From Chiloscyllium plagiosum (taxonomy: Eukaryota), in NCBI RefSeq assembly GCF_004010195.1, contig NC_057719.1:16417929-16481928 (forward strand): 64,000 bases of DNA. Reading direction: 5' to 3'. Positions 160 to 57,620 of this stretch are shown here, piece after piece; within the stretch, counting starts at the first letter, position 1; every line of letters begins with the position of its first letter. Position numbers and translations under genes: made by a program. The notes under the pieces were generated by a model. The model saw only the letters and a program-made list of their open reading frames with translations, was not told the DNA's origin and searched no databases.

Positions 160-470
160 TCCCTCCAGCCCGGCACCGCCTTCCTGACCTGCAGTCTTCT
201 TCTTGACCTCTCCGCCTCCATCCTACTCCGACCTATCACCCTCACCTTGACCTCTTTCCACCTATCACATTTCCAACTCCCCTCCTCCAAGTCACTCCTC
301 CCTACCTTTTGTCTTCTCCTGCTGAACACTCTCTGCTCATTCCTGAAGAAGGGCCTGTGCCCAAAACTTCGAATCTCCTGTTCCCTGGATGCTGCCTGAC
401 CTGCTGTGCTGTTCCAGCAATAAAGTTTCAACTTTGATCTCCAGCATCTGCAGACCTCACTTTCTCCTCG
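160..470 (+). mobile_element. Penelope-like element 3' end with decayed hammerhead motif
   Basis: Near-identical to 32564-32787 and ends ...ccagcatctgcagacctcactttctcct. Motif ATTC-CTGAAGA-A-GGGC-CTGT-GCCC-AAAA has GAAA mutated. Confidence 0.8.
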
Positions 471-471
471 A

Positions 472-945
472 AAATCTTCTCTGAACCCTTTCAAGTTTCA
501 CAACATCCTTTCGATAAGAAGGAGACGAGAACTGCACACTATATTCCAAAAGTGGCCTAACCAACATCCTGTACAGCCACAACGTGATCTCCCAATTCCT
601 GTACTCAATACTCTGATCAATAAAGGAAAGTATACCAAACACCTTCTTCATGATCCTATCTACCTGCAACTCCACTTTCAAGGAATTGTGAACCTACAAT
701 CCAAGGTCTCTTTGTTCAGCAACACTCCCTAGGACCTTAACATTAAATGTATAAGTCCTGCTAAGATTTGCCTTTCCAAAATGCAGCCCGTCATATTTAT
801 GTAAATTAATCTGCATTTGCCACTCCTTGGCCCTTTTGATCAAGATCCCATTGTACTCTGAGGTAACCTTTGCTATCCACTACACCTCCAATTTTAATGC
901 CATCTGCAAACATATTAAGTATACTTCCCATGTTCACATCGAAAT
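472..945 (-). mobile_element. CR1 LINE fragment (RT C-terminus)
   Basis: ORF 457..681 LYRMLVRPLLEYSVQFSSPSYRKDVVKLERVQRRF is typical of CR1 ORF2. Confidence 0.85.
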
Positions 946-2665: not shown

Positions 2666-2755
2666 CTTTTCTTTCTGCAATTTCTCCTTTTCATGGATCG
2701 ACAACTGCAGACTTGCTTTCAGCTCTTGAATATCTTCCTTCCCATTGTACTTAGC
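2666..2755 (-). CDS. TRIP11: TRIP11 coding exon 9
   Basis: Acceptor cttttaag, 90 nt, AKYNGKEDIQELKASLQLSIHEKEKLQKEK, consensus donor AAG|GTGAGT. Confidence 0.85.
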
Positions 2756-3814
2756 CTTAAAAGAAGTTCAAATGGTGAACCACCACAATTTTTATGCCAT
2801 ATGACAGAACAACTTATAAGACAAATAATATTTGAAACATTTCTCAACAGGGATGCTGATTACTTCCTTCTCTTCTATATGGCAATGTGTAAAGAAACTC
2901 TTGCTCTGGATTAAAATACATGAAAGAAATCTCTCTAAATCTATCCAACAATGATGTATCTGGCATAAAGACTAAATAAGAAGTGATGACTGCCACCAGA
3001 CAGAAACTTTGTTAGTCAAATAAACTAACAATGTGCTCTTAAATTTGCACTTTTTTATATTCATTTGTTAACAATTTCATACAAACAAAATCAATGACAG
3101 CAGCTGATTTTTTTTGCCTGCATTCACATTAAATATATCACATACAGAGAATTCAATGTAAATACTCTCATTCCAATGATAAAAATAATAGAAAGAATGA
3201 GTGGGCCCGTAAGTCGAGAGGATATTTCAGATACAGGAGTCTCCTCCTTCACTGAAGAAGGCTCGAGTTCCATTTATTATAAATATACGACTAATTTGGA
3301 TTAATATTTCAATAGAAACACAAAATGCTTCAAACAAAAGATGTAATGACAATTGTTCACATACACATGAAGTTGGAGATTTGCTTGTTATGTTTCATAT
3401 TTAGTGCAAATATGCATTTTAATCATTGGGATTTGTCAACTGCACTACTCCTTTCAAATGAACACTCAAAGCTTGAATACGACAAGACAAAGGTAATCTG
3501 TGATTTATATTCACTCTACTTTCAAGCAAATAAAATGAATGAAAGCACCAAAAATATTAAAAATAAACAAAAAGCAAAATCTTGATATGAACCAACTCCT
3601 GAAAGTTGAATTTAATTAAGATTCCTATTGTGTAAGCTCCTGGTGCACGATTTGCATCCCACTCATAGATGATGCTAACTGTAACTCAATATATAATGGA
3701 GGAGTTAGCAAGACAGCCTGATAATAAGAAATATGTAAGAAAGAAACAGAATAGATCAACAAATTCAAGATAGCATGAGTCATAAAGCTCAAAGTGAACT
3801 TGCGTTTCACATAC

Positions 3815-3855
3815 TTCATTCGTGTTATTCAATCTCTTCAGTTTATTGTCTGCAT
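3815..3855 (-). CDS. TRIP11: TRIP11 coding exon 8
   Basis: Acceptor ttgcag, 41 nt, phase 1 to 0, (D)ADNKLKRLNNTNE, donor GAA|GTATGT. Restores frame. Confidence 0.85.
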
Positions 3856-5899
3856 CTGCAATTAAAGAAAACATGTTAAAATTCTAATATATATGACAAA
3901 ATCCATCATCATTCATCCTTGCAACTTGGCAGGAACAGATAAATGCTTTCATTTTCAAAATTATCTAAGCAAAAGATGCAAATTAAGAGCAGTTGAGGTT
4001 AAGGCAATTAAAGAAACTAACTTAAACTGTCTTTTTGATCCATACCTGGGATTGACTTCAGTGACACTATTAACATCAGGTATCTCAGTGTTGAGAATGG
4101 GTTAGGGAGTTAGAAAGGGAAAGAAGATATTCCTTAGTTTTTTCTAACATTTTCAACCTGTAGGAAATGGTCGCTACTCTTCTGGAGGGGAAAGTACCCC
4201 TGCAATGCAGGGATGGGCAAGTGTATAAGATCCAATATATTTTTATATATTAAAGCAGTATAGAAACTAGTAGACAAGGCGAGAGGTAACGGTATTAGAA
4301 CATAGAACATAGAACAGGACAGCACAGGACAGGACAGCACAGAACAGGCCCTTCAGCCCACGATGTTGTGCCGACCAGTGATCCTCATGTATGCACCCTC
4401 AAATTGATATGAGAAATGATGATCTATGTTCCCTCTAAATTCTCAAACCATTGCACAGATTTCCAAGGTTTGTGCACAGCAGCAGCTGAAGAAACAAATT
4501 AACGCATCAGCATGGCCTAGAATGCCAAATGGCATGCACAGATTCCCCCACAGCCACTACACAGTTGGTTTAGAGGGAACATTGATGACAAACTGACCAT
4601 GACAAAAGGATAAAGTACAATCCAAGAGTTAACAAACAGATGGTGCTAAAGGTTACAAAAATAAAAGGCAAAATTAAAGACTCAGACTCTGAATGCATAT
4701 GGTATTTGAAACTGAAAGCACAACAAAATAGGATCTGATGGTCGTTCAAGAGACATGGTTGCTGGATGACTTAGAATGGGACCGGAGTATTGAAGGGTAC
4801 AGGACTTTGACAAAGGACAGGAAGTTAAAAATGATTTTGGAATGGCTCTGTTAATTAGTTATAGCATCAGCACACTAGAAGGGAAAAGGCTAAGCACAGT
4901 GTCCGGAAGTTGTTTGAGTCGAGATGAGAAATAATCAAGGCAAGAAACAGTGATCTAAATATACTTTTCTCAATTTCATATTCATCCACATGATGCAGCC
5001 TCCTCCTCTACAATGGAGAGACAAGCGCAGATTAGGTAATCGCTTTTCTGAACAACACTTATATGCTACAGTACCTAGAGTTAAGAAGTATGCAAGATGA
5101 TCTCATTGAAACTAATAAAATTCTTAAAGGGTTTGATAGAATTGATGCTGTGAGGTTAACATCCCTGGTTGGAGAATCTGGAAGTACATGTCATAATCTC
5201 ATGTTAAGTGCTTGGTCATTTAGGAACCGAGATGAGGATAACTTTCTCCACTTAGAGCAAGGTGAATCTTCGAACATTTCCAGTTCAACTTCACACATTT
5301 ACGTTATACCGCATCTACCTTGCATTTGCCCGCCAACTTACTCAAACTGTCCAATCACTTTGAGCTCTCTTTCCTTTCTCATTACTAACTATCTCACCTA
5401 GTTTTGCCTCATGTGCAAACGTGGAGATATTACATTTTATTTTCTTGTTCAAATCATTGATATATTTGAAGGATAGCTGGGGTTCAAGCATCGATCTCTA
5501 CAGTAGTGCTTGTCATCAACCTTCAATTTAGAAAATAGATACTTTTTCTTATTCTGTTTTCTATCAACTATAAAAATCTCAATCCACAAACAGCATATTT
5601 TCTCCGATTGTGTGTTTTGATTTTGCATAATTTCATGTATCAATTGTTTCATGAAAATCCAAATTGAAATGTAAGATCAGGTATGATGTCATTGAATAAT
5701 AGAATGGACTCAAGTGATGAATGGCTTACTCCTGCTCCTATTTCTAGTCTTTTATGTAAAATGTGATATGTAACTATTTTGATTAGAAACAGTGGCTTCA
5801 TTTGAATATCTCAAGATGACAAGAAAATAATAACCCTATAGTATTTATCCTGTAGCGTTTTTTCACTATGGGTAAGTTGCAATAAAGAAATAAGAAATT

Positions 5900-6825
5900 T
5901 ACAAATGAATTTAGATAGGAAGGCAATTGAGCCAAAACTTCGTGGATTAAGTTTAATGTGGATAAATTTAAGGCTATCCATTTTGGTCAGAGGAATTGAA
6001 AGGCAATTTATTACTTAAATGGAGAGAAACTTCAGAGTGCTTCAGCGTAGTGTTTTCTGGGAGTCGTGTATGAATTGTAGGAAACTAGAACATATATTAC
6101 AAGAGTACAGCACAGAAACAGGTCCTTTGGCCCACGAGGTCTGTGCCAACCATGATGCCATTCTAAACTGATCTCATCTGCTTGCACATGGTTCACATGC
6201 AAGTAGAACAACTAATAAAGGAATGCAAATACAATGTTGATATTGATTACGAAGGAAATAGTATATAAATGTTGGGAAGTGTCGCTGCAACCATGCCAGA
6301 CATGAGTAAGATTGCACCTGGAGTATTGCATACTGTTTTGGACTCCTTACTTCAGGAGGAATATAGTTGCATTGGAGGCAGTTCAGAGGAGACTCAGTAG
6401 ATTCCAGAGCTGAGGGATTTGTCTTAAGATGACAACTGAGCAGTTTAGGCGTGCACTCTCTGAAGTTTAGAAGAATAAGAGGGTAATGGGGATTGATAAA
6501 TTAGACATAGTTAGGCTATTTCCTCATATGGGGCAATTTAGAACAAGGAGTCATAGCTTTTAGATAAAGGGATAGCAGGTTTAAGAGAGATGAGGAGAAA
6601 TTACGTCTCTCAAGTAATCTCTGAAACAGGATGCAATGGATGTCAGAATATTGAGTAAATTTAAGGACGAGGTCGAAAGATTTCTAATTAGCAACAAGTT
6701 GAAGGGTTATGGAGAGCAGACAGGAAAGGAGTGGAGGCTGAGATGAGATCAGCCATCATCACACTAAATGATGGAGCTAGCTCAAACGGCTGAATTGCTT
6801 ACTCCTGCTCCCAGTTCTTATGCCC
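5900..6825 (+). mobile_element. Old CR1 LINE 3' portion
   Basis: Degenerate RT C-terminal coding signature (cacctggagtattgcatactgttttgg) and CR1 3' UTR/tail (ggctgaattgcttactcctgctcc). Confidence 0.7.
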
Positions 6826-6870
6826 TTGGGAGTATTGCTGTACAGCATCCATAAAAAGAGCACATTGTAC

Positions 6871-7197
6871 CTGCAACAGCCTGCCTGAGTAGGTACACTT
6901 CTTCCTCCAGTGCCACTTTCCCTGATAATTGGTTTTTCTGTTTCTCTACAGTACCCTGCAGGTCCTGAATACAGTTTTGTGACTTCGTATATTCCTCCTG
7001 TAGTCTCTTGCATTCTTCTTTCAGTTGTCTTATCTCTGTTGAAGAATTTGCCTTCTCATGGAGCAAACCATCAGCTGGTTCCTCGTTCCTGGTCTTAACT
7101 TGATTTTCCAGCTCATCTCCAGACTGCTTTTTGGCTACTAATTGATCTGCTCTCTCCTCAAGGAGTACTGAATGGTCTGACGGCACAGCACCTGCTT
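6871..7197 (-). CDS. TRIP11: TRIP11 coding exon 7 (coiled coil)
   Basis: Acceptor ctttcag, 327 nt, phase 1-1, (E)AGAVPSDHSVLLEERADQL...IRQLKEECKRLQEEYTK...ALEEEVYLLRQAVA+G, donor CAG|GTACAA. Overlaps ORF 6818..7186. Confidence 0.9.
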
Positions 7198-7834
7198 CTG
7201 AAAGAGGTACAGATATACAAGTTACTAAAACACTGCTGATTTTTCAAACTGCACTGATAGACATTCATCACGACTCAACTGCAGCCTGAAATCCAGATGA
7301 TGAATTGTTCTTTTTAATTCTTAAATCCAGCAGTGAAGACGTTGCCAAGTCCTTGAAATTATTTAAGTGAATTTGTTGTTTAAATGATGACTTAGGCTAT
7401 CCAATCAAGTGAGCAGGACTTTACACACCCCCCCAGTTAAAGATGCAGCACTATATTTTTTAAATACAAGCGACAGCTGCTTGCAAGGTAATTCTCAAAT
7501 CAATTTTTGCATGGCAAACATTGTGTAAACTTGACCTTGGCTGAAACATTTTCCACACATCAAAAAGGGAGGTGTGAGTGCAGTTTATTTTTCTGTACAA
7601 ACTACTTTTACATTGCTTGAAATTTGCCCTTATTCATTTAGATTGCATACCCTGGATAGCCAGCAAAAAGCCAAATGGAAAACCAGGGCAACTCACCAAT
7701 ACTGCTGAGCAGGAGGAGTTTTTATGCCTCAGCTGTAAAATCTAGCAACTATCAGGCTTTTAAAACCAGCAGAGATATTAAGTTGGCTCTGAATGATCTT
7801 TCCAATAGAAACTGCATATATCAATGTGGGTCTC

Positions 7835-8596
7835 TGTGTCGGTGCTGCTCCAGTAACAAGGTTATGCGATCCTTGCTTTCTTTTCCAGAGACGTCGTAAA
7901 AGTAGCAATTCTGAAAAGTCTGGATTGGATGGGTTTTAGGGCCAATTCGATTATAGCTAACAGATACTGCCTCAGGTAAAAGGCTTTTAAATTTAAAAAA
8001 ACACTTGCACAACGAAAGGGAAGTGGCCAATTCTCCCAGCTCAGCTTTTCACTGGCCTGGCTATTCACTGAAAGCCGTCAGGCAGTTTTGAGGCTGCTAA
8101 TCCAAAAAACATCTACATGGAAGAGCGTGTTTCCATGCTGCCATCTCGCTCTCTCCTTTAACACCCTGTGCTTGGTTTTACCTTTATACCAATGGGTCTT
8201 ATAGGGATTGTTGCAAGTATTGGGAACAGCATCATTAAGTTGGGAATAATCTGTTGGGTTTTCAGACAGGTTAAGATATTCTGTTCTCTTCTGTTTGTGT
8301 TTCATTCAGCGATCTTGTAAATAGATTCTGTTTTGTTTAAAACTAAGTGGTTTGACCAGCTGCATCCCTCCTGGAATAACCGTGTTACACCTGCTTAAAA
8401 CAACTACCAAATTTAGGGTCTGCGCTACTGTCTTGAAATGTTTTGAGGGGGTCTGGCCTGGTCCATAGGGCTTACGCCCGAAACGTCGATTCTCCTGTTC
8501 CTTGGATGCTGCCTGACCTGCTGCGCTTTTCCAGCAACACATCTTCAGCTCTGATCTCCAGCATCTGCAGCCCTCACTTTCTCCTGGTCCATAACA
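7835..8596. mobile_element. Solo LTR with nested Penelope-derived fragment
   Basis: Begins TGT (7835), ends ACA (8596), flanked by 5-bp direct repeat GTCTC (7830-7834, 8597-8601). Confidence 0.7.
8468..8582 (+). mobile_element. Short Penelope-like 3'-end insertion
   Basis: gggcttacgcccgaaacgtcgattctcc...ctcactttct flanked by 11-bp TSD cctggtccata (8457-8467, 8583-8593). Confidence 0.85.
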
Positions 8597-10094
8597 GTCT
8601 CACATGACACAAGATCATCTATGAAATAATTTTTTCTTTTTTCTTTCCCCAGTAAACAAATAAATATGGCACGTGCCATGAGATATTCAACTAACTACTC
8701 TCTCAAATTGATCCAAGAGATTCCATGGTACAATTTAGAAGTTTCTGAACTTTTCCCTGGTGACCTGACCATTTAGTGCTGAACCAACATCAGAAAACAA
8801 AATTATCCAGTCATTCATTACCTCATTGCTGTTTGTGAAACGCAATGTTGTCCAAATTAGTTACCATCTTTCCTAAATTACAATGCTGAGTTCTCTTCAT
8901 TTGTTTTTAAAACAGTTGGAGATATCCTGAGATTGTTAAAGGAGCTATAATTAACACAAACCCTTCCTATATTTCCAGTAGGACATCTGATTTTTTTTCC
9001 TCTGAAATTTCCCTCCCTGCGGATATAACTGTAAATATCCTCTCTGCAGGGTGTTGCTTAGTTTACAAAGGAACAGGTATTTACGACTGAAGTTCATCAT
9101 TGCTGCTCATGAACTTTCCATAACTTGAAGACAGTCTGATATATCTTGTTTAAACTTGTCCACATAGGGTAAAGAAAACAGATTTTACAGTGTAAATGCA
9201 AGAAGCCAAATCACAGGCTCCCACAAAATGAAAGAAGCTGACCTTTGACAGTTGGTAAAGTCAATAACAGCTATCTAGAACAGTGAGGGGCGAAAAATAC
9301 GTTTAGGCTAAGAATATTTGCATCTCAAGTTTTTTCCTTAAAATGTTATTTTTCTTCTTATTTGAAAGGAGGCAGTAGAATTTTCAAAGAACATGCGTCC
9401 TCCATTCCTTCCAAAACAACTTAGGCTTACAGCATCAGCTTTGGTATCATGCCCAAGAAGCCAATTTGCAAATGTGGACCTCGCAGCGAATACTGGCCCA
9501 ACAAATTCCTGTCCTCAACAAATTTTCACATACACTCCTTTACCAGCAGGTGGCCTCCAGACAGTGATTAGGAGCATAAATACTTATAACTGAGACAAAT
9601 TATAATTTCACTATAATTTCACCAAATTCAATTCACTTTGTGAAATGCATCTGTCTCTACTGAACTGCAGGGATCCATTACGTACTGCCTTCATCAAACG
9701 AACTGCAGAGCTACCAAGGTACACAGTGACAAAGAAATAGCACCGGTCCGCCCAGAATTAAAAAAAAGTTTTTATAATTCTAAAAGCTGAAGTGCTCCAC
9801 AACTATTCTGAACTCATTCCTCCCCAACAGCTTAAGGTATAAATTAATACAAATTTTACAACTGGAAGCTTCAGACACAGTATTTTTTAGTTGCATACAT
9901 TTGTTTGGCTTAAATGATTCCACTAATTGGTAAATCATAAAACAGTTACAGAGAAACCAAGGTCCCAAGGAGAAATGATTTAAAATATCCATTTGATCAT
10001 GCGTAACAGTTTACATTAAGTGCGTTACTTTAATCCTCAAAAGACTTTTCTGCTGCATTAACAGACATGCATACAACTTCGTATTACTTCTAAC

Positions 10095-10257
10095 CTTGCA
10101 ACTGCTGCTCCAACTCTTCAATCCGTTCTTCATATTCTGCAAGTTCATCCCTATGCCGGAGCGTGAGGTTGGTTAGTTTCTGTCGATGTGCATCCTGCAG
10201 AGCTGACAGCTCATGCTGATGGTCATCAATCTCCTGACTAAGCTGCTTCTTCATCTC
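10095..10257 (-). CDS. TRIP11: TRIP11 coding exon 6
   Basis: Acceptor ttatag, 163 nt, [54 protein letters not shown]+G, donor AAG|GTTAGA. Confidence 0.95.
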
Positions 10258-11269
10258 CTATAATAATTAACCAGCTGGATATTATTAGAGATGTACCAAT
10301 TATTACCATAATCAAAGTATCTTTTAAGGAACATCAATCATGATCTGAATAATTCCAATTTCCTGTCCATTTAGCACCTCCCACACAATACACCAACATA
10401 TTGAGGCGGCTAAGGCATACAGACCACGACACACACACACAAAGAATCATATGCAAGCTTTGCCGTGGATAATATTAAAAGGTTTCTTCAATGTGTTCTT
10501 ATTATTTTGTTCTACAAACATAGATCAGGAGCAGTACGTTCAGCCACTTGGACCTGTTTCACCATTTAATAAGATCATGGTACTTCTAATTAACAACCCC
10601 ACCTACCCTGGTAATCATTCAACACGTCACAAGAATTTATCTACTCCTACCTTAAAAATAGTCAAGGACTCTGCCTTCGCCACTTTTTGAGAAGGGAGAT
10701 CTTATTAAATGGATGCTGAACATCAATCCAAGAACAGTGAAAGGTTTTGTAGTGATTGGGAATATAAAGCTATTAAGGCAGAACAATGGCTAGTTGGTCA
10801 ATCTAAGTCTTCATTTATAACTTGTGCTGCTGTTCTCAACTTTCAAGCAATAGACCAAGTTTTTATCAAAATACAACACAAAAGTGATTGATATTTACAT
10901 TTTTAACCTAGTTATGATAAATGGACTTTTGCTAAGTCATGTCAACTGTCTTAATACGTTTAAATATCTAAAACAAAATTGCTCTAGCATAAACTAACAC
11001 ACTTCAACAATTTAGCTCAACCACAAAACATTTTTCACTTGTTAAAACAATCTTGGTCAATGATTGATACGTCATTGCAACAGACACGACATAACACACC
11101 TTTCCAATGAGATAGCAAATTACTACTGAGTACAGCACAAAGCCTTATAGATCAGGAGATGTTGCTTGCAATCATTAATTCGGGCTGAATTAGTTGATTT
11201 CAGCTGAGTTGATGACAGCAACACACTTTTGACTTCAGTACTTGTGTCCTGATGAATACACTCCTAAGT

Positions 11270-12539
11270 CAAAAAGAATCTGGGATAAGGTGGAGGAAGG
11301 GGAAAATGAGGAAGCTGCTGAAATCAACATTGATCCCATGTGGTTGGAGGGTCCCAAGGCAGAAGATGAGGAGTTCTTCCTCCAGGCATCAGGTTAGAAT
11401 CTGGCAGAAGAGGAGGCCCAGGCATGTCCTTGGTGGAGTGGGAGAGGGGGTTGAAGTGTTCAGCCACTGGACGGTGGGATTGTTTTGTGCATGTGTCTCA
11501 GATGTTCTCTGAAATGTTCCACAAGTTGGCGCCTTGTTTCCGCAATGTAGAGGAGACTACATCGGGACCAACGGACACAGTAGATGACGTGTGTGGAGGT
11601 GCAGGAAAATCTCTGTCGGATGTGGAAGGATCCTTTGGGACCTTGGACGGAGTTTGAGGAGGGAGGTGCAGGCACAGGTTTTGCACCTCTTGCGCTGCTG
11701 GAGACTAGAGTCAAAAAGTGTGGTGCTGAAAAAGCACAGCTGGTCAGGTGTCCGAGGAACAGGAGAGTCGACGTTTCGAGCAAGAGGTGCAAAACCTGTG
11801 CCCACACCTTCCCCCTTGCCTCCATCCAAGTCCCCAAAGGATCTTTCCACATCCAGCAGAGATTTTCTTGCACCTCCACACACATCATCCACCTTGTCTG
11901 TTGCTCTCGATATGGTCTCCTCTACGTTGGGAAAACAGCACGCCAATTTGTGGAACGTTTCAGAGAACATCTCAGCAACGCGCACACCATACAACCCCAC
12001 CGCCCTGTGGCTGAAAACTTCCAATGTCCCCCTCCCACTCCGCCAAGGACATGCAAGTTCTGAACCGCCTTCACCATCAGATTCTAGCCACCCGTTGCCT
12101 GCAGGAAGAACACCTCATCTTCTGTCCTGGGACTCTCCAACCACACAGGATCAACATCGCCCCTCCCACTACCTTAACCCAGATCCATCTCTCCAACTTG
12201 GCACTGCCCTCTTGAACTGTCCTACTTGTCCATATTCCATAAGACGATAAGACATAGGAGTGGAAGTAAGGCCATTCTGCCCATCGAGTCCACTCCGCCA
12301 TTCAATCATGGCTGATGGGCATTTCAACTCCACTTACCCGCATTCTCCCCGTAGCCCTTAATTCTTTCTTCCCACCTATACACTACACCCTCCACTCCGA
12401 CCTACCACCATTGCTGAAGAAGAGCTCATGCTCGAAACATTGATTCCCATGCTCCTCGGATGCTGCCTGACCGGCTGTGCTTTTCTAGCACCACACTGTT
12501 TGACTCTGATCTCCAGCATCTGCAGGCCTCACTTTCTCC
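11270..12539. mobile_element. Penelope-like element (GIY-YIG region) with inverted segments and nested CR1 tail
   Basis: 13-bp TSD tacactcctaagt (11257-11269, 12540-12552). GIY-YIG-type text FSCTSTHVIYCVRWSRCSLLYIAETRRQLVEHFREHL on minus and a homologous copy on plus. CR1 3' tail at about 12233-12365. Confidence 0.88.
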
Positions 12540-12639
12540 TACACTCCTAAGTGTCAACCAGTGACCACTTGGTTAGAAGTGCAGACAACAGCGGAGGATA
12601 AAATCTGGTTTAGCAACAAAGCAATGAACCATAAATATA

Positions 12640-13000
12640 GCATGGAAAGGAGTACGGGTTGATAAGTGATCTCATACAGTTTTATAAGGCCATGGCGGGT
12701 ATAGATAGGGTTAAATGGTAAGTGTGTTTTCCCTAGGATAGGGGATTTTAAGACTGGGGAACTTTTTAAGGCGAGAGGAGAGAGATTTAAAAAAAGACAT
12801 GAGAGGGAATTATATTTACACAGAGGGTGGTTCATGTGTGGAATGAACCTCCTGAGGAAATGGTGGATAGTTATAACATTTGAAATTCACTTAGGTAATT
12901 ACAAGAAAAGAAAAAGGTTTGGAGGGATACAGGCCAGGAGCAGACAGGTGAGACTAATTTAGTTTGTGATTACGCTCGGTACTGACTGGTTCAACCGAGA
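12640..13000 (+). mobile_element. CR1 LINE 3' end
   Basis: Typical CR1 3' sequence (tttaaggcgagaggagagagatttaaaa...gtgtggaatgaacctcctgagg). Confidence 0.75.
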
Positions 13001-13414
13001 GGTATCATCACTCATCAGCAACAGATAAAGACAAGAAATACAGGGTACTTCTAAATTTTGATAAAAAATTCAAACTCCCAAGTTATGGACTGAAAACATT
13101 TAGCAAACGATTTTTCATTTTAAATCAAAATTGTGCATGAATTAATCCTGTGCCAATAATTTAATATGATATTTTGAAAACCCTTATTGTTTCATATAAA
13201 AAAGTCCAACAGATCATTCCCTCTTGCACTGTTGTTTCCACCCAAGAATTGTCCTACAGTTCACAACATTTTAACTGTTGTTTCACCTCTTTTGGGAGCA
13301 AACCATGAGAGCAAACCATGAGAGCTGATAGAAATTCACTTGGATTCTTCTCAGTTTCCCAGTCTGGCACTTATATTTTCAGAGCTCTCAATCTATGAAG
13401 ACACCACTGCTTAT

Positions 13415-13702
13415 GGGCGGCACAGTGGTTAGCACTGCTGCCTCACAGCGCCAGAGACCTGGGTTCAATTCCCGCCTCTGACGATTCTCTGTGTGGGGTT
13501 TGCACATTCTCCCAGTGTCTACGTGGGTTTCCTCCGGATGCTCCGGTTTCCTCCCACAATCCAAAAGAAAATGTGCATGCTAAATTGCCCGTACTGTTAG
13601 GTGAAAGGGTAAACGTAGGGGAATGGGTCTGGGTGGGTTACACTTCAGCGGGTCAGTGTGGACTTGTTGGGCCGAAGGGCCTGTTTCCACACTAAGTAAT
13701 CT
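13415..13702 (+). mobile_element. HE1-type V-SINE
   Basis: tRNA-like head (gtggttagcactgctgcctcacagcgcc, ggttcaattccc), V-domain core (gtgggtttcctccggatgctccggtttcctcccac), CR1-like tail. Confidence 0.9.
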
Positions 13703-14486
13703 CTTCCACTAGCTTTACCTGGCAGATCTAACAACTTTAACCATTTTTGGACTATTCTTTCTGAACTGGGTCCCTCTCTGAATTATTGCTTAGCTGTTAT
13801 AAATCAGGAATACCTCTGTGCCTGAATCACCTTTATGCTCCTTGCTTTGGCTGCTAGCAGATACACAACTGCCTTCTCAGTCTACCACAGTGACTCTGCT
13901 CTCCCTCTTCCCACAGACACAGTTAATCCTAATACAAAAGGGCCTCCTACCAAAGACAACCTAGCACCACCTGGATATTCCAGATGGAGATTCTAATCAA
14001 TCATTGACAAATTTCAAACCTGCTGTTTGTTTTGAAAAATATGTAGACATTTTAAGATTGTCCCTTATTTACCTGTTGCTTTTTAATCTTTCTTTAAGAT
14101 GAGGATCACATGAATAATTCCGATCTTTAACAACACAAGGCAAGTTTCCGTTAAGTATCTTCGGCTCCGTAGGTAAATAACCCCACCTGCTGTTTTATGG
14201 TTCTTGACCTTTAACTCTTGACCTTATACATACTGTTTGCAAATAATTTGGGTCTAGCAACTTCAGAATCCCAAAGTTTCAAATATCTAACATTTAAAAA
14301 TTTCATTACCCTAAAACTAGAAAGTTACATTCCTAAACAACATGATCAATGAAGTTACATCAACCTGCTAGGAAAATAACCAGGATATTTTCAACAGTAG
14401 AATACTCTCATTTTAGATTACCATGGACTGTTGGAACTTGGATCATGCTCAGCAATTGAGAGAGAAATTTGGTCAAAAGTTCTTAC

Positions 14487-14546
14487 CTCGATTGTCTTTT
14501 GCAATTTGTATTTTTCATCCTCGCCAGAACTGTCTGAACCTTGACC
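14487..14546 (-). CDS. TRIP11: TRIP11 coding exon 5 (5' boundary 14546 via AAG acceptor, or 14555 if a non-canonical GG is used)
   Basis: (APK)GQGSDSSGEDEKYKLQKTIE resembles TRIP11 [23 protein letters not shown]. Strong donor GAG|GTAAGA. Phase 0-0 with either acceptor. Confidence 0.85.
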
Positions 14547-15310: not shown

Positions 15311-15605
15311 GGGCAGCACGGTGGCTCAGTGGTTATCACTGCTGCCTCACAGCACCAGGGTCTCAGGTTCAATTACAACCTCTGACGACTGTCTGGAGTT
15401 TGCACATTCTCCCAGGGTCTACGTGGGTTTCCTCTGGGTGCTCCAGTTTCCTCCCATAATCCAAAGATGTGCAGATTAGTTGAATTGGCCATCCTAAATT
15501 GTCCATAGTGTTAGGTGCATTAGTCAGAGGGGGGTAGGTTACTCTTCGGTGTGGATTTGTTGGGCCGAAGAGCTTGTTTCCACACTGTATGGTATCTAAT
15601 CTAAT
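15311..15605 (+). mobile_element. HE1-type V-SINE
   Basis: Same head, V-core and tail as the 13415 and 58341 copies. Confidence 0.88.
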
Positions 15606-15635
15606 ATCGTTGTTATACAATGCTAAATCAAGTGT

Positions 15636-31290: not shown

Positions 31291-31299
31291 TCCTGAAAG

Positions 31300-37570: not shown

Positions 37571-37574
37571 CTTC

Positions 37575-42120: not shown

Positions 42121-42196
42121 ATCTGCAACATGGAAAAAGCTGCTTCGGTCCACTCAAACAGTAAACAATTATCCAACTATTCTCTGATGTGGAGGT

Positions 42197-42369: not shown

Positions 42370-43289
42370 TCTCTGATGTGGAGGTGCCGATGTTGAACTG
42401 GGGTGGACAAAGTCAAAAATCACAGGACACCGGGTTATAGTCCAACAGTTTATTTGAAACCGTAAGCTTTCTGAGTCCCCGCTCTCCTGCCTGACGAGGA
42501 CCAAATATTTTGACCAAATATTCTATGAAGAGAAAATAGAGTTAACGTTTCCGCGCCAGTGACCCTTCTTCAGAACTGGACCCGAAATGTTAACTTTGCT
42601 TTCTCTCTATAGATGCTGACAGACCTGATGAGGTTTTCCAGCAATTTTTGTTTTTGTTTCTGATTTCCAACCTCCGCAGTTTTTTTGCTTTTTTTCGTTT
42701 GTCTACCGAATTATTCTAAATCCATTTTCCAGTATTTGTCTCAAATACTTGTATGCTTTGTCACCATTAATTCACTTTCTCCACAAATGCTGCCAGATTC
42801 TCTAGCCTTTTCTGTTTTTCATTTCAGAATTCCAGCATCCGCAGCATTTTATTTTGAAAGAAAAGTTGAATTAACAAAAACTGTGTGAACCACCGCTGAG
42901 GATTGACTAATAGCATATTACAACTCCTGTATACAGTATGTGCATTTCTACTTTGTCAAATTTTCTTTCACATTTTGTTTCAAAGGAAAATAAGAACTAA
43001 AAACACATGACTAAAACGCGGAGTGACGAGATATAAAATACATATTTTATATTAACAATTTCACTACAGCATTTTACGTGAAGATCTCTCGCGCACAGGA
43101 AGATGAGCTTGGATGCCATGGTCCGGATCTTGCCAGCCCAATAGTGGCGAACACGAATAGGTTCAACGCTTATTGAGAATGACTAATATTCTGAGGAGCT
43201 AGGTTCAAATCCTGTTATGACTGATGGTGCAAATTAAATTCAATCAAGAATTAACAGCCAAATGATAACCATGAAGCCACTGTCAATTA

Positions 43290-43970: not shown

Positions 43971-46900
43971 TTGTCAGGAGAAAAAACCCTTTGGATCATT
44001 CATGTTCTTTATGGAAGGAAATCTGCCTTCCTTCTTTGGTTTGGCCTACATCTGAGTCCAGACTCACAACAATGTGGTTCATTCTTAACTGCCCTCTGGG
44101 CAATTAGGAATGAGCAATAAATGCTGGCCTACCAGAGATGCCCAGATCCCATGAGCAAATGAAAAATATTGATGACAAACTTGTAATTAACTTTGAAAAT
44201 ACCTCCGTGTCTCTTTTTAAAACTGAATTTTAATGTTGCCTTTTCTTTGCAAAATTTGTTGGTAGTTGTGCACCGGACAATGAAGGGATGTGTATATTGT
44301 AAGAATTGTGGAGAATAAGTTGAACAACTAGTGACCTTTTGTGCAAGTTGCAGGTGCTTATTTCATTATAGATAATTTTCCCGTCATTGCATTGTGAAAT
44401 TTAAAATAAATTGAAGACAAATCTCATGTTTTCTCTATTACCCAGTGAATTTATTGGGAATGTGATATCTGATCTTTTCTCAATTACATTTTTAAGCATT
44501 CAATTTTTTATTCACTTAAATTTAATACTTTTGTTATTTTGTTGAATAAAATAATGATTGCAATTAAAGTGACAGTGATTGTCTCTTATTTTAGGGATCA
44601 GCAGCTTAAATATAAATTGCAGCTTTATCCATTGTGTTATGTATGATTTCATTATTTTCATAATCAAGTTTCCACAAGTCTGAACTCAAATCCATGATAA
44701 GATTGGAAGAGAACATGTTAACCAGTTCAGCAACAAACATTATTATGAATACTCCTCTGAATTGATAATGTTGAAAAATTATGTTAAATATGATCCAATT
44801 TGATCTTGGACATACTTAACATATATAAACTAATAAGACAGGTGTAACTTTATACTCTGTTTTAGTGCAGATGGATGGTCGACAACATGAAATGTTTTAA
44901 ATTTGGAAATGTCAAATGTTTTCTTGTGTTTTCAATTGTACCTCAATTGCATGACCAGATCCTAGAAAATAGATTCCAAAAATTTCACCTCCCATTGCAG
45001 AATAAGGGAGAAAGGCAAGGGATATATGAATAAGGGTGGAAATTGTACAGCCTTTTAGTTAGCAGCCAGTCAAACCAATTGTCTTTAAATCCTAAAACAT
45101 CACAACCATTTAGCCAGTTCAATTACATTATACTGATGGTTCAATGGTACCACAGCTATTCAAGTGCTATTTCTGTGAAAACATTCTGTACTAATTATAA
45201 TTCTATTAGATTGACTTGCAAACACAAGTTAAGTGACAAATTGTAAACAATAGATGGAACCTTATGTTACGCCATAGCTTTCTATATAATCATGACCAAT
45301 CAACTGGTTCTTCAGTTGTTTAACTTCATCTTTTTAAAAGTTGGCCATCTCTAGAGTTGCAAATTCAGGGAAATATTTAGAAACAGTGAAAGTCAATTGG
45401 ATAAGCAATGGAACTCAAAAAATGGTGAGTGAGAATTATAGAATATAGCAACTGAATAGCTGTATGGGACCATTAGAGAGGAAAAGGTTACTGAATTAGC
45501 CATGACCAAACTGGCAAATTGGTGAACGCGTTGTAGGGTTGTCAGATGCTGGAACATCATGTGAATTCCTATCTAGTCAGTCTTGTCTCTCACTTCAAAC
45601 TATCTTATATCTAATAAACAAACATGATCAGAGGAAGTGAAAAAAAAACACTTTTTTCAGACCCCAGTTTTCTCCTGGGTTGCTAGCAGCAGTGACAGAG
45701 ACTATTTATCTTTAATTTCTGGAGATTTCAGGACAGGCTGCAGGTTCACAACTCTAACAAAAACTGAAAGAACTGTGGTTGCTGTAAATCAGAAACAAAA
45801 ACAGAATTTCCTAGAAAAGCTCAGTTTTGAGGAAGGGTCACCCAACCTGAAACGTTAACTCTGATTTCTCTCCACAGATGCTGCCAAACCTGCTGAGCTT
45901 TTCCAGCAGTTTCTCGTTTTGTACACAACCCGAAGAGACTGAAATCAATAATAACTACAACAACCTGAAATGTCCTACTGAACACCAATAATGCAAGCTC
46001 CTCATTAGATAAGTGAGAGAAAAGTAAATAAATGAATATAACAGAGTAAACAAATGACATCAGGCATACTATGCATATGCAAGATGAACTTTTTTTCCCA
46101 AAAATATAGAAACATAAGAATGGGAATTGTTGAGCTGCCCAACATCCAATATGATCATGGCTGATTGAACACTTCAATGCTTTTTACCAATCCCACACCA
46201 CCACCCGCATCACCCCACCACTCCATCCACCTGACCCATGCCCAAAACCTTGCACACCACTGGTAATCAGAAGTCTATATTTCTCCATCTTAACTATACT
46301 CAAAGACTGAGCTTTAAGAGCCTTCTATGGTAAAGAACACAATCTTCTGATGAAGGAAATTTCTCTTTATCTTGGATCTAAGAAGGCATCCTTCTTATTT
46401 TTAAATTGTGCCCCAGTTTCTAGACTCCCCAACAAGAGATATATCTTACCGTGTCCATCCTTTTATATATTTTATAAACTTCAATAAGGTCACTTGTCAT
46501 TCTTCAAACCTCTGGACACTACAGACCAGTTTGTTCAATCTCTCTTCTTAGGATGGTCCCTCTATTCTTGAAAAAGTCTGATGAATGTTAATCATAGTCC
46601 CTCTACGTCATTAGTATCTTTCCTGTGAAACCAAATATGATTGACTGTCAACTTCCCTTGGGGCAATTAAGGAAGGGTAATAAATACTGTCCTGGCCAGT
46701 GACATCCGTCCCCCATGAATGAATTTAAAAAACTGCAAACTGTACTCCAGGTGCGACCTAACCAAGCTCCTGCACAACTGAAACCAGACTTCACTACTTA
46801 AATATAGAAATTTTCTTACAATGAAGGCTAACCATCTATTAACTGTCCTATGCTCTATTTCTAAAATTTATAAAAGGATACCCAGTTCAAAGTTGATATT

Positions 46901-52014: not shown

Positions 52015-52233
52015 TGAGGTAAAAACAATGACTGCAGATGCTGGAAACCAGATTCTGGATCAGTGGTGCTGGAAAAGCACAGCAATTCAGGCAGCATCCG
52101 ACGAGCAGCAAAATCGACGTTTCGGGCAAAAGCCCTTCATCAGGAATGAAGGGCTTTTGCCCGAAACGTCGATTTTGCTGCTCGTCAGATGCTGCCTGAA
52201 TTGCTGTGCTCTTCCAGCACCACTGATCCAGAA
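52015..52233. mobile_element. Fold-back Penelope-end insertion (89-bp arms) with hammerhead
   Basis: 13-bp TSD tttagtctgagat (52002-52014, 52234-52246). Arms 52052-52140 and 52146-52234 with a 5-nt loop. Confidence 0.92.
52112..52147 (-). ncRNA. Minimal hammerhead ribozyme motif (PLE type)
   Basis: AUUC-CUGAUGA-A-GGGC-UUUU-GCCC-GAAA-CG-UC-GAUU. Canonical CUGAUGA/GAAA core and GUC triplet. Confidence 0.72.
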
Positions 52234-52683
52234 TTTAGTCTGAGATCACTAAGTTTAGTAATCAGTCTCGAGGGGATAATAGTGTTGAAGGCTGAACTGC
52301 AGTCAATGAGTAGGATTGTTATGTAGCTGTTCTTGGTGTCAAGATGTTCTAGGGAGGAGTGAAGGGTAAATGTTATGGCATCTGACATGGAAATGTTGGT
52401 CTGATAGGCAAATTGGAGTGGGTCAAGATTAGTGGGGAGGCTGGAGTTGATTAATGCCTTTCAAAGCACTTCATGACCACAGACGTTAGGGCCACTGGGC
52501 AGTAGTCATTGAGACATGCTGCATGAGCCTTCTTAGGGACAGGGATTATGTTGGCCCTCTTGAAACAGGCAGTGGCCTGCTGTAGGAAGAGGTTGAAGAT
52601 GTCCGAGAAGACCTCTACCAGTTGATCTGCACGTGATCTGATGCATGGACTGGTACTCCAACTGGTCCCATCGCTTTCCTTGG

Positions 52684-52996: not shown

Positions 52997-55900
52997 AAAG
53001 GATTCACACAAAGGAAAACGGATCTGATCTCTGATGCAATGACTGTTGGGATAGGTTCATCAGGACTTGTCGGAATAGGTGCTATCTCTCTGCCGAAATT
53101 CTGCTCAAAGCAAGCATAGAAGGCATTGAGACGATCTAGGAGGGATGTGTCATCGTCTGCTATCTTGCACTGTCTCTTTTTAGAACCTGTGATGTCATTC
53201 AGTCCTTGCCATAGTCACCAGGTGTCTGTCTGGGTCCCTATTTGCATTGGTATTGGTCCTTGGCTGTCTTAATGGCTCTGCGAAGATCATACTTGGATTG
53301 CTTATATTTAAGTGAGTCTCCTGATCTGAAGGTCTTACATCTGGTTTTTAGCAAGTTCTGTATGTCCTGATTAATCCAGGACAGACCTGGATAGACTTCC
53401 TCGGTATGCAGTCCTCCACACACTTGTGACAGTGGTGGCGCACTTGTCCAAGGTACCTACAGACTGTTTGAACATGAGGGGGGTCTCCTGCTTGAGCTTT
53501 TGCCTGTAAGCTGGGAGAAGAAACACGGCATTGCAGTTGGAGTTCCCGAAATGAGGGCAGGGGATGGAGCGGTAGGCATCTTTCACGGTGGTGTAGCAGT
53601 GGTCTAAAATGTTCAGGGCCCTGGTGGGGCAGATAATGTTCTGGTGGTACTTGGGCAGCACCTTCCTTAGATTAGCTTGGTTGAAGTTGCCAGTTACAAT
53701 AAACAACCTCGGGATATTCCATCTCCATGGTATTAGTAGTGGAGTACAGCACATCCTGAGCTTCCTCAAACTTTGCTTGTGGCGGTATGTACTCAGCAGT
53801 TAGTATAGCAGCAGTAAATTATTAACATATTAATAAAATATACAAACTGCTTATCAAAATGTTTTTGCAAACCATCCTTTAATTCATCCAGCCCCTTTTA
53901 CACCATTATATGTACCATTTTAGTTAAGACAGTTTTTTCTATATATTATTGTATTTTCTCGGTTCAAACAGATCAAAACTCTGGAATATCCTCCTTAAAA
54001 AGTATTAACTAGATAGGATCAAAGTTCAATGCTCCGTGGTAAAATATTTTTAAAATCTTTTAATCACTACTTATGCTTTTGGTGTGGTTTCCTAATCCTG
54101 AAATTAATCCCTTCACATCTTCAATCTAAAAAAATCTCTCATCTTGTTTAAGGCATGCCAGTTTTGTGCTCAAATCCATTGATTTTCTATTTGTGGTTGA
54201 AGTTAACTAATCTAGTTACATCCGTCTTTCAGCATTCTAAAGATCTAAATTTATATTCTGTTCAATTATCTTTTCACCATTGTAAACATACATAATTCTC
54301 AGAGTCTGTTTTCAGAATGTGTAACCTTAGAAAGATAGAAATGAGAATTGGTGATTTATCCCCCTCTAGACGGTTTGGTGATGTAATGAGATTATGGACG
54401 ATGCCCCACACACTCCTTTGCCCCATATTCATACTACTTATGGTTAACAAAAATCTATCAATCTCAGATTTAAAACTTACAACTGATCTCACATTAATGG
54501 CCAAGGGAAATCCAAATATTATATGTCGGTGTTTCCTGTCTTCATGTCAGAAATTTCCAATGTATAGGCTCTAGTCCCAAGTCAAAATTCCCCAACCAGC
54601 TGGAATAGTTTCTCTCTCCCAAACTTATCAATTCCTCTGAATATTTTGAGAACTGCAACTGATCATTATTTAAGCATCTAAAGTCCAGTGAATACAATGT
54701 TAGTTTCTACCCTTTCTCCTCAGAATTTCACTCTTGGAGGTTAGGTATCATTCTAGAAGTCCAATACATCCTTCCAGAACTGTGACAGCTAGAACTGAAG
54801 GCAGATCTCCACAATGATGTGACCAGGACTTTATACAATGTGTATTATCAAATCAATTCTAGTCCTTTGTATTTTAGTCCCCTGGATAGAAAGCTCAACA
54901 TGCCATTAGCATTTTCTGTTCCTGTCCATGTCATTTTAATGACCTATGTAAATAATCTTTGCATCTCCACTCTTCCTAATTTTTCATTTGTTCTTTTCAG
55001 ATCTAAGGTGGGTGACCTCCCAATTATCAACAAAGCAAAGCGATCACCCAGTTTACTGTTTGGTCTCACCAGTGTAAAGAAGAACACCTCCACTCTCTCA
55101 GTAAGAATGACCGTGACCTTCCAGTTATTTACTATTCCAAGAAACCAACTTTCTCCAATTCGAGCCAACTCTAGATTGTAATGGGGCCTACAGGTAATGG
55201 ACAACAATTGGCTCATTAATTAACATCATACTATCACTGACTGGAAAACTGCTCCAATCCCCTCAGCCGTCTGACTCAACTGGAGGACGAAACTGATGCC
55301 AAACATCTTCCACAATTGACGGGACTGGCTGCAGAAAATCCATCCCTTCATAGCTGTTTCATGCTTTTCCCCATCAAATGTGGCACTTAACTTGATTATA
55401 TTATGGCTGCAATTTCTTGGGACTTGACTGCACCAGTCAGGCAGCCCCTGACTAAGGGAGGGATTTCTAGTGAAAGTGGGTGTTGCCCTGTTGTCAATCT
55501 AAACTTTGCTGCCACCTGTGGGTCATTCCCAATTCCACAGGGAGTCCATTAGGAGTCACCAGGCGAACTGTCCACTTAGCAGTGATCCATATGCCACTGA
55601 TAAAATGCCAGCGAGAGGCCCTTAATTGGCTGTTTTAAGTGACATAGTTGGCTTTTGGGAGGATGGGTCATCCTCCACCTTCCCAGTCACTAGCCAAATG
55701 CGATTATAGTGGGCAGTGATAAGCAATTCATTGTCCCCAACTGTACCCCCCCCACCACTCCCCCACTCCCTCACCATTTTCTGCAGATCCTACCAAGCAT
55801 CCTATTCTTAAAGGGCTAGTAAAATCCAGCTCAGATAGTCAATATTATTTGTCTTGACATCAATAAATGACCATGAGAGGCATTCTCATATCTGTGAGAT

Positions 55901-56070
55901 TGTCCGGTCCATGGACATCAAGTCAGGATCAGGCACAATTGAGATCCTCTCATGGTTAAACAGCCTGCCACCAACACCCATGAAATGAAGGCACATGTGC
56001 AAGTTATTCTGTGTGTTAGTAAAGAAATTGGGTGAAAACAAAACAAAAAAGGGAAATAGTCTTTCCAACA

Positions 56071-57620
56071 GCAAGTTTTGAGAAGATTTGTAGCTCAGGT
56101 TGAGATTCTGGATGTAATTTTGCTTGCTGAGATGAAAGGTACATTTTCAGATGTTTCATCATGATACTAGGTCACATCATCAGTGAGGATCTGGTGAAGC
56201 ACTGGTTTCTATTCATCTGTTTAGGTTTCCTTGGGTTGGTGATGTCATTTCCTGTGGTGATGTAGTTCCTGTTTCTTTCTCTCAGAGGTTGGTAAATGGG
56301 GTCCAAATCATTGCGTTTGTTGATAGAGTTCCAGTTGGAATGCCATGCTTCTAGGAATTCTTGTGCGTGTCACTGTTTGGTTTGTCCTAGGATGGATGTG
56401 TTGTCCCAGTTGAAGTGGTGTCCTTCTTCATCTGTATGTAAGGATACTAGTGAGAGTGGCTAGTTGATGTTCATGTATCCTGGTGGTTTTCTGCCTGTTT
56501 GTCCAATGGAGTGTTTGTTACAGTTCTTGCAAGGTATTTTGTAAATGACATTAGTTTGCTTGTTGTCTGTATGGGGTCTTTCAAGTTCATTAGTTGCTGT
56601 TTTAGTGTGTTGGTGGGTTTGTGGGCTACCATGATGCCAAGAGGTCTAAGTAGTCTGGCAGTCATTTCTGAGATGTCTTTGATGTAGGGGAGAGTGGCTA
56701 GGGTTTCTGGACATGTTTTGTCTGCTTGTTTGGATTTGTTGCTGAGAAATCGGCGGGCTGTATTCATTGGGTCCCTGTTCTTTTTGAATACGCTGTATAG
56801 GTGATTTTCCTCTGCTCTTTGTAGTTCCTCTGCACTGCAGTGTGGGGGGACTCATTGAAATAATGTTCTAATGCAGCTTTATTTGTGGATGTTGGGATGA
56901 TTGCTTCTGTAATTCAGTATTTGATCCGTATGTGTTATTTTCCTGTAGATGCTGGTTTGAAGTTTCCCACTAGCTGTTCACTCTACTGTGACATCTAGGA
57001 ATGTCCCCTATGTTAAAGACAAATCAGAAATGACTGCCAGACTACTCAAACCTCTAGACCTCTTGACATCATGGAAGCCCACAAACTCATCAACACAATA
57101 AAACAGCAGCTAATGAACTTGAAAGACCCCATATAGACAACAAGCAAAACTAATGTCATTTACAAAATACCTTGCAAGAACTATAACAAACACTATACTA
57201 GATAAACAGGCAGAAAATAGCCACCAGGAAATATGAACATCAACTATCCATAAAAAGACATGAACCACTCTCACTAGTATCCTTACATACAGATGAAGAA
57301 GGACACCACTTTGACTGGGACAACACATTTATCCTAGGGCAAGCCAAACAGAAACATGCAGAATAATTCAGAGAAGCGTGGCATACCAACCAAAACTCTA
57401 TCAACAAACACATTAACTTGGACCCCATTTACCACCATCTGAGAAAAAAGAACAGGAAATGACATCACCACAGGAAATGAAATCACCAACCCAAGGAAAC
57501 CTAAACACATAAATAGAAAGTGGATCACTAACACCAGTGCTTCACCGGAGGCTTACTAATAATGTTACCTAGTATGGTGGTGTAATGTCTGAAAATGAAC
57601 TTTCCAGCAAACTTACATCC
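56071..57620. mobile_element. Penelope element: inverted pair of 5'-truncated copies
   Basis: Minus copy ATLPYIKDISEMTARLLRPLGIMVAHKPTNTLKQQL...KDP followed by a VIYKIPC-type GIY-YIG segment. Plus copy from about 57004. Degenerate TSD agtctttccaaca/agtcttttcaata. Confidence 0.87.

What the first reader, a model, noticed from the sequence alone, without database searches (positions are those of the whole stretch)
339..57595. Minimal hammerhead ribozyme motif shared, with covarying helices, by at least four Penelope-related repeat families
Seen: the pattern helix I - CUGA(N)GA - extra nucleotide - helix II - GAAA - 2 nt - UH - helix I' recurs with different helix sequences. AUUC/GAAU with GGGC/GCCC occurs at 32365-32400 minus, 32700-32735, 29391-29426, 52112-52147 minus, and decayed at 339-374. 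A compensated GAGC/GCUC helix II occurs at 12410-12445. AGUU/AACU with a GGGUC helix occurs at 45823-45860 and 42540-42577 minus. CAU/AUG with an AGCU helix III occurs at 34420-34454 minus. UCA/UGA occurs at 56147-56186 minus, with a decayed twin near 57550-57595. Helix III is a palindromic tetramer (ACGU or AGCU) in the undecayed copies. Established: Penelope-like elements carry minimal type I hammerheads in their terminal repeats that are thought to cleave as dimers through this palindrome. Inference: about 10 such motifs in 64 kb implies a very large ribozyme-bearing repeat complement in this shark genome, which I am not aware has been characterised.
Basis: partly seen in the sequence, partly recalled or inferred. 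Interest (0 to 1): 0.75.

Follow-up and report, generated by a model that had tools for sequence, protein, structure and literature searches.

The report
Shark Penelope elements' minimal hammerhead ribozymes
These are mostly decayed copies of a known self-cutting RNA motif at the ends of four Penelope-type jumping-gene families, present over 160,000 times in this shark genome, and many short copies begin exactly at the motif with an extra G, so they were likely copied from capped RNA that the ribozyme had not cut.

Summary
Largely confirmed, and of a known kind. All 11 sites belong to four Penelope-like element (PLE) families: A, B and C Neptune-like, D Poseidon-like. Each carries a minimal type I hammerhead in its pseudo-LTR. 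Exact core patterns occur 132,898 (ACGU) plus 31,577 (AGCU) times genome-wide, against 85 and 11 controls. Helices covary across families (30 of 32 Watson-Crick pairs, shuffle mean 15.7). Corrections: only 3 of 11 window copies keep core, helix II and palindrome. Helix I is AUUC/GAUU (U·U), not AUUC/GAAU, in most family-A subfamilies. Inserted copies decay neutrally, and 13 of 175 have a same-strand partner within 1 kb. Short copies start at helix I (49 of 149 family-A copies at -7..+1), preceded by G in 59% of junctions versus 9 of 100 at a control position. They were likely reverse-transcribed from capped, uncut RNA that starts at the ribozyme. Cleavage was not shown. PLE hammerheads are published (Cervera 2014; Frangieh 2024). 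This scan already noted the motif and the start-site reading in this and other shark genomes. New here: scale and fossil-end evidence.

The parts
173..468 (+). Family A (CUGU-loop subfamily) pLTR fragment with tail; hammerhead 339-374 decayed (G12A, palindrome ACUU)
8467..8585 (+). Family A stub that starts inside the hammerhead (lacks CUGANGA); 11-nt target duplication
11475..12060 (.). Inverted pair of Neptune-like GIY-YIG fragments (11764-12060 +, 11475-11651 -) with a partial antisense hammerhead and tail at 11785-11696
   Evidence: Pfam GIY-YIG E 0.00076, below curated cut-off
12410..12541 (+). Family A (GAGC/GCUC helix II) hammerhead 12410-12445 and tail, about 350 nt after the GIY-YIG; helix I first pair G·G, palindrome decayed to ACAU
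19844..20002 (+).
27401..28954 (.).
29000..29522 (+). Family A (UUAU loop) ORF end, pLTR with TATA-like box, hammerhead 29391-29426 (AUUC/GAUU, palindrome ACAU) and tail
32272..32787 (.). One insertion: inverted pair of family A (CUGU loop) pLTRs, 32272-32540 (-) and 32564-32787 (+), 15-nt target duplication; hammerheads 32365-32400 (-) and 32700-32735 (+), the two most intact in the window
34330..34460 (-). Family C (AGCU palindrome) stub; hammerhead 34420-34454 with intact core but helix II reduced to 2 pairs
42009..42660 (.). Cluster: family B copies 42095-42009 (-), 42540-42577 (-, helix II broken) and 42575-42660 (+); family A inverted tails 42196-42371; family C tail 42477-42398 (-)
45823..45927 (+). 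Family B hammerhead 45823-45860 (AGUU/AACU, C3U) and tail
52017..52239 (.). Family A (UUUU loop) fold-back stub: full hammerhead 52112-52147 (-) starting at helix I, inverted partial partner 52146-52239 (+)
56081..57639 (.). Family D Poseidon-like inverted insertion: ORF fragments 56471-56848 (-) and 57003-57230 (+), hammerheads 56147-56186 (-, helix II and palindrome decayed) and 57550-57595 (+, core destroyed)
2666..41571 (-). Host gene TRIP11, first seven matched exons; all copies left of 41400 lie in its introns

Best explanation
The motifs are minimal type I hammerheads in the pseudo-LTRs of four Penelope-like retrotransposon families; the copies in this window are truncated and mostly decayed, and in the active parent elements the motif likely forms the first 35 or so bases of the capped transcript and would cut only with help from the element's protein or a second copy. 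Shown: position about 340 nt behind a GIY-YIG frame, inverted and tandem arrangements, 35-40 nt tail, target duplications, covariation, neutral decay of copies, pile-up of 5' ends at helix I with an extra G. Inferred: transcription starts at the A of helix I (family A), about 30 nt behind a TATA-like box; the reverse transcriptase starts internally at one of two tail sites about 90 and 127 nt downstream, copies through the uncut ribozyme and the cap, and inserts a 90-130 nt stub, often with an inverted arm. Inferred: the cut is a conditional, later step that would drop a capped 32-nt leader and, with the cut in the downstream pLTR, leave a unit-length RNA; it is not needed to make the short copies.
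For: PLE link: RT and GIY-YIG upstream on the same strand for A (Pfam RVT_1 E 5e-7), B (2 of 15 loci), C (GIY-YIG with CxxC linker by eye in L027; no Pfam hit), D (RVT_1 E 9e-8). L096 has two same-strand motifs 3,135 nt apart around an RT, with N gaps. 3' ends bimodal at 84-92 and 124-128, as for the PLE tail (PMC8557442, PMC11167929). Selection in parents: core fixed while N7 and loop II vary; 117 of 128 subfamily cells paired, shuffle mean 75, max 91; family level 30 of 32, mean 15.7, max 26. Neutral copies: non-CpG core divergence 3.3% against 4.8% in tail columns, G12 lost in 17 of 98 through CpG decay. 5' ends: 49 of 149 family-A copies at -7..+1 (5.4 per nt) against 0.16 per nt upstream and 1.3 per nt downstream; family C 10 of 42. 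Base before the motif: G 1,974, A 894, T 487, G expected 20% from genome or 37% from inverted arms; control position G 9, A 37, T 54 of 100 listed rows. Of 40 G junctions, 7 had a simple target duplication: G untemplated in 3, G-A-T microhomology in 4. Folding: helix II P 0.87-1.0 in family A, helix I P<=0.1, active dimer 5-15 kcal/mol above the cofold minimum. In Anolis PAc the hammerhead cuts only with protein and uncut RNA is the main template.
Against: No cleavage, start site or cap was observed: RNA reads gave no pile-up of molecule ends (library not suited, so no test). 33 of 40 G junctions are complex, so the G is not traced case by case. In family D the TATA box lies about 50 nt upstream and only 5 of 17 copies start near the motif, so the start-at-helix-I reading does not hold for D. 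A local excess at the predicted cut site is possible (486 at +28, 103 at +29, 279 at +27), though inverted arms inflate it. D. virilis Penelope has a TATA-less internal promoter. No gap-free full-length element was obtained.
Confidence: 0.72

Rival explanations
1. Obligate dimer processing (Cervera and De la Pena model): the two pLTR hammerheads of a tandem pair through the palindrome, excise a unit-length RNA, and that RNA, possibly circularised, is the main template for new copies.
For: Palindrome kept in all four families as CG or GC, other states mostly CpG decay; paired same-strand motifs in L096; possible excess of 5' ends at the cut site; dimers cut weakly in vitro and the review passage on Lunse et al..
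Against: Short copies keep the 5' half of the motif and an extra G, which a cut RNA would lack; 5 of 149 copies start at +27..+30, no more than background. It may still hold for long copies, so it is not exclusive of the best explanation.
Confidence: 0.17
2. The motif is a vestigial hammerhead kept as a protein-binding fold or promoter-initiator element and does not cut in the dominant lineages.
For: Most family-A subfamilies carry U·U in a 4-nt helix I; helix I is not predicted to form; an intact copy sits on the sense strand of a TRIP11 intron, though inside a 224-nt inverted repeat; hammerhead mutants do not affect PAc insertion in vitro; Naiads thrive without it.
Against: All catalytic positions, G10.1-C11.1 and the palindrome are fixed across Neptune- and Poseidon-like families while N7, loops and helix letters change, the pattern expected for a catalytic fold; the PAc motif does cut with protein.
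Confidence: 0.1
3. Chance matches or one repeat counted many times.
For: No Rfam hit; only 2 of 11 pass the strict descriptor.
Against: Reverse-pattern controls 85 and 11 against 132,898 and 31,577; four families with unrelated or only partly related flanks and different helix letters.
Confidence: 0.01

Closest known systems
[quoted passage not shown]
   Same: Core, extra base between 9 and 10.1, G10.1-C11.1, palindromic 15.2-16.2, short helix I, many consensus families, mostly single truncated copies, opposite-strand pairs 100-700 nt apart, rare tandem pairs about 3 kb apart.
   Different: Copy number: over 160,000 exact here against about 4,000 (coelacanth) and 9,000 (Xenopus), with different descriptors. 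Helix II is 4-6 bp. U·U in helix I of the main lineage. Sharks are not mentioned in the parts read.
Poseidon of Anolis carolinensis (PAc), Frangieh et al. 2024, PMC11167929 (parts 1-2 of 4 read)
   Same: Two RT start sites giving the tail, hammerhead in the pLTR, uncut RNA as template, no RNA ends at the cut site.
   Different: PAc ORF starts inside the hammerhead; the ORF start was not located here. No cap-G or start-at-helix-I evidence in the parts read.
Neptune and Penelope/Poseidon clades, Craig et al. 2021, PMC8557442 (passages)
   Same: C-terminal GIY-YIG, CxxC linker in A and C, partial tandems, inverted 5'-truncated copy, 30-40 nt tail.
   Different: Clade placement here rests on motifs seen by eye; no tree was built.
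Non-LTR retrozymes (PMC7229834, passages; bioRxiv 10.64898/2026.07.22.740005, parts 1-2 of 5 and passages)
   Same: Type I hammerheads in very high copy (126,247 in axolotl); reported in one chondrichthyan.
   Different: Retrozymes are tandem 150-450 nt non-coding repeats; these copies are dispersed PLE ends tied to RT and GIY-YIG frames.

Membership tests
PLE minimal type I hammerhead | Core CUGANGA, GAAA, UH in type I order | tested here: met
   8 of 11 window sites; 132,898 + 31,577 genome-wide
PLE minimal type I hammerhead | Helix II with G10.1-C11.1 and an extra base before it | tested here: met
   13 G-C and 3 G·U of 16 subfamilies; extra A or U in all
PLE minimal type I hammerhead | Short helix I | tested here: met
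   positions 1-2 paired in 31 of 32 cells; position 3 in 9 of 16, U·U in most of family A
PLE minimal type I hammerhead | Palindromic positions 15.2-16.2, no helix III | tested here: met
   CG in A, B, D; GC in C; other states mostly CA/TG
PLE minimal type I hammerhead | Compensatory covariation between families | tested here: met
   30 of 32 at family level; 534 against about 20; R-scape not run and shuffles ignore relatedness
PLE minimal type I hammerhead | Self-cleavage as dimer or with protein | not testable with these tools
   folding only; RNA reads gave no test
EN+ Penelope-like element | RT followed by C-terminal GIY-YIG upstream of the pLTR | tested here: met
   GIY-YIG Pfam score below cut-off for A, none for C and D
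EN+ Penelope-like element | Partial tandem and inverted 5'-truncated copy | tested here: met
   L096; 89 of 175 with opposite-strand partner
EN+ Penelope-like element | 30-40 nt optional tail | tested here: met
   bimodal 3' ends in A and C
EN+ Penelope-like element | Intact single ORF between two pLTRs | tested here: inconclusive
   all 20 fetched RT loci carry N runs
Neptune versus Poseidon clade | RT phylogeny | not tested
   assigned from CxxC linker and RT motifs by eye; motif labels partly recalled
Non-LTR retrozyme | Tandem short non-coding repeats each with a hammerhead | tested here: not met
   13 of 175 have a same-strand neighbour within 1 kb; window copies are dispersed
Rfam hammerhead families | Covariance-model hit | tested here: not met
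   no hammerhead family among 48 matches at E<=10

The most novel reading that the evidence does not exclude
In shark Neptune-like elements the hammerhead is the capped first 35 bases of the transcript and acts as a protein-gated decapping switch rather than a processing step: tens of thousands of genomic stubs record reverse transcription through the uncut ribozyme into the cap, and the most successful lineages carry a weakened helix I. With over 160,000 exact cores in 3.56 Gb this may be the densest hammerhead complement described.
Probability: 0.3. Interest if true: 0.62.

Novelty: new member of a known kind. Interest (0 to 1): 0.38.

Why it matters
What the PLE hammerhead does in vivo is open (Craig 2021 calls it unclear; Frangieh 2024 found it dispensable in vitro). 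This genome gives enough copies to read RNA ends from DNA junctions: they point to capped, uncut RNA as the template of short copies and to a start site on helix I, which makes the question testable with one CAGE library and a few constructs. It also supplies a large natural set of covarying minimal hammerheads that Rfam does not detect. The association itself is not new.

Tried and rejected
Rfam: no hammerhead hit; snR86 and miRNA hits come from long inverted repeats. MAFFT put family C one column out of register (one row of 62 had wrong coordinates), so pair counts were made by structural parsing in Python, and the count of structure pairs and covariance models were not used. Full-length element: 20 RT loci all had N runs; the ORF start was not found. 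Sequencing runs: no RNA holder listed; raw single-cell reads X22 map to both strands, 87-95% running on into unrelated sequence, with no pile-up of ends; X23 laid nothing: no test of start or cut site. Cut-site excess inconclusive. Strand bias in TRIP11 introns: 20 antisense against 13 sense core-covering copies, too few to judge. Lunse et al. 2017 (PMC5785218) is not held; seen only as a reference and review passage. Supplements of the 2026 bioRxiv preprint are closed and may list shark hammerhead counts; supplement 1 of PMC4209133 could not be searched. Retrozyme reading rejected (dispersed, ORF-linked).
Full report
Observation. All 11 motifs are at the stated places. A strict minimal type I descriptor passes 2 of them (32365-, 32700+) against 0.035 per shuffled window; a version allowing one mismatch in helix I adds 29391 and 52112. 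Eight of 11 keep the exact core and three keep core, helix II and palindrome. Profiles built from genome copies find 26 family hits in the window. Rfam finds no hammerhead. The window is G000:C10:16417929-16481928 of a 3.56-Gb genome. An exon at 6872-7204 is 100% identical to a protein that the tool labels TRIP11 of Chiloscyllium plagiosum; the gene runs on the minus strand from 41571 leftwards.

Scale. Exact patterns genome-wide: family A 93,197 (control 0), any ACGU form 132,898 (control 85), any AGCU form 31,577 (control 11), family D 18,423, family B 674. In 577 kb picked by position, 44 structured core-intact motifs occur against 0 in 10 Markov controls, and 125 copies cover the motif when decayed ones are counted; 175 do in 1.22 Mb for families A, C and D. 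Extrapolated, this is roughly 0.5-0.75 million copies including decayed ones. Published counts are about 4,000 and 9,000 minimal motifs in coelacanth and Xenopus and 126,247 type I motifs in axolotl; descriptors differ, so the comparison is loose.

What carries them. Family A lies mostly 330-350 nt behind a GIY-YIG frame and 750-1,000 nt behind RT on the same strand (Pfam). Family B has the GIY-YIG upstream in 2 of 15 loci. Family C has a GIY-YIG with a CxxC linker and a (CA)n spacer in L027 (seen by eye, no Pfam hit). Family D follows a Poseidon-like RT and GIY-YIG in L144. L096 shows motif, RT, motif at 3,135 nt spacing with an inverted piece in front, across N gaps. 3' ends fall at 84-92 or 124-128 nt from C3 in family A and similarly in C, the PLE tail. 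Target duplications of 10-16 nt flank five window insertions. Clade names rest on motifs, partly recalled; no tree was built.

Covariation. By structural parsing of core-intact copies (249) into 16 subfamilies, 117 of 128 helix cells pair (shuffle mean 75, maximum 91 in 20,000), and 30 of 32 at the level of four families (mean 15.7, maximum 26). The shuffles ignore relatedness, and copies were selected on the core, so core invariance in this set is by construction; anchors on the tail and shows the core as uniform as the most conserved tail columns while N7 and loop II differ by subfamily. The GAGC/GCUC change occurs 534 times against about 20 expected. Against the finding: the third pair of helix I is U·U in 6 of 8 family-A subfamilies, including the largest, and this is inherited, not decay.

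Are the copies working? Mostly not. Non-CpG core positions diverge by 3.3% and tail columns by 4.8% (the latter includes subfamily differences) in 98 copies; G12 and the palindrome sit in CpGs and are lost in 16-28%. Helix II folds in family A, helix I does not, and the active dimer lies 5-15 kcal/mol above the best cofold. Of 175 full-motif copies 13 have a same-strand neighbour within 1 kb, 89 an inverted one and 82 neither (10-kb pieces truncate some neighbours). An inverted partner cannot form the dimer and would pair with the motif.

Where copies begin. This lead came from earlier scan notes and was tested here. Of 149 family-A copies at least 88% like a reference (208 found), 49 begin at -7..+1 relative to C3, 5.4 per nt, against 0.16 per nt further upstream and 1.2-1.3 per nt downstream; 5 begin at the cut site (+27..+30), equal to background. 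Family C gives 10 of 42; family B loci look the same by eye; family D does not (5 of 17 near the motif, TATA about 50 nt upstream). A TATA-like box lies about 30 nt upstream of these starts in A, B and C. For three family-A subfamilies the base in front of the motif, when the base before it is non-template, is G 1,974, A 894, T 487, and template C 3,694. G is expected at 20% from the genome or 37% from inverted arms; at a matched internal position it is 9 of 100 listed rows (small deletions inflate T there, but G:A is 9:37 against 2.2:1). In 40 G junctions read directly, 2 abut an inverted arm, 3 show an untemplated G after a target duplication, 4 a G-A-T microhomology and 33 are complex. Genome-wide counts at the cut site are 486 (+28), 103 (+29) and 279 (+27), confounded by inverted arms, and well below the 7,049 counted at -4/-5 with one flank filter. 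RNA reads also break off at the A of helix I (107 loose ends), but these are read-through of genomic stubs, not independent evidence of a start site.

Mechanism. Shown: the anatomy, covariation, neutral decay, end positions and G excess. Inferred: an upstream pLTR starts a capped RNA on helix I; RT starts internally at the tail, as in PAc, runs through the uncut ribozyme, copies the cap as an extra G and inserts a stub; longer copies come from the downstream pLTR. Inferred from fixed core letters and from PAc: parents keep a conditional ribozyme that needs protein or a partner. The cut would free a capped 32-nt leader and, with the downstream cut, a unit-length RNA. The dimer-and-circle model remains possible for long copies (0.17) and a non-cutting role less so (0.10).

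Known or new. Minimal hammerheads in PLE pLTRs, their families, covariation and weak dimer activity are published. Searches found no paper on shark PLE hammerheads or on a cap-derived G in PLEs, in a library that lacks most subscription papers; one preprint reports tandem retrozymes in one chondrichthyan. The scan has noted the same motif and start-site reading before, in this genome and others (702 findings hold the words). Verdict: real, new member of a known kind, interest 0.38.

Noticed in passing
window 32272-32787: An intact hammerhead lies on the sense strand of the first TRIP11 intron but inside a 224-nt, 99% inverted repeat that would pair with it in the pre-mRNA.
   Followed up: partly
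window 32315-32320 (minus), 32772-32777 and 425-430 (plus), approximate: The CUGU-loop subfamily has AAUAAA in its tail; 48 reads have T-rich loose ends at 32309 (agreement 0.55). Could be polyadenylation or AT-rich flanks.
   Followed up: no
family D motif, e.g. window 56160-56175: Loop II starts with a second palindrome, CUAG, kept across nearly all D subfamilies.
   Followed up: no
L027:800-1150, L111: Family C carries a long (CA)n-rich spacer between the GIY-YIG frame and the pLTR.
   Followed up: partly
L259, L267, L271: A second B-type subfamily has helix I AGCU/AGCU and helix II GAGUC/GACUC, a further compensated set.
   Followed up: partly
L132 (334 nt), L044/L045 (206 nt), L080 (544 nt): A few short same-strand tandem pairs of motifs, candidates for retrozyme-like dimers.
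   Followed up: no
window 40214-40310 (+): U6-like match below the Rfam gathering score (33.6 bits), probably a pseudogene or LINE-linked piece.
   Followed up: no
window 465-945, 24756-25680, 36787-38972, 43277-44040; 13416-13696, 15387-15589, 52688-52985, 58358-58645: Many CR1/L2-type LINE 3' fragments and a SINE-like family (labels recalled).
   Followed up: no
L003: Frames resembling retroviral protease and RNase H next to a family-A stub; observed only.
   Followed up: no
L099:1-2760 (minus): Open frame of at least 920 codons unrelated to the PLE RT.
   Followed up: no
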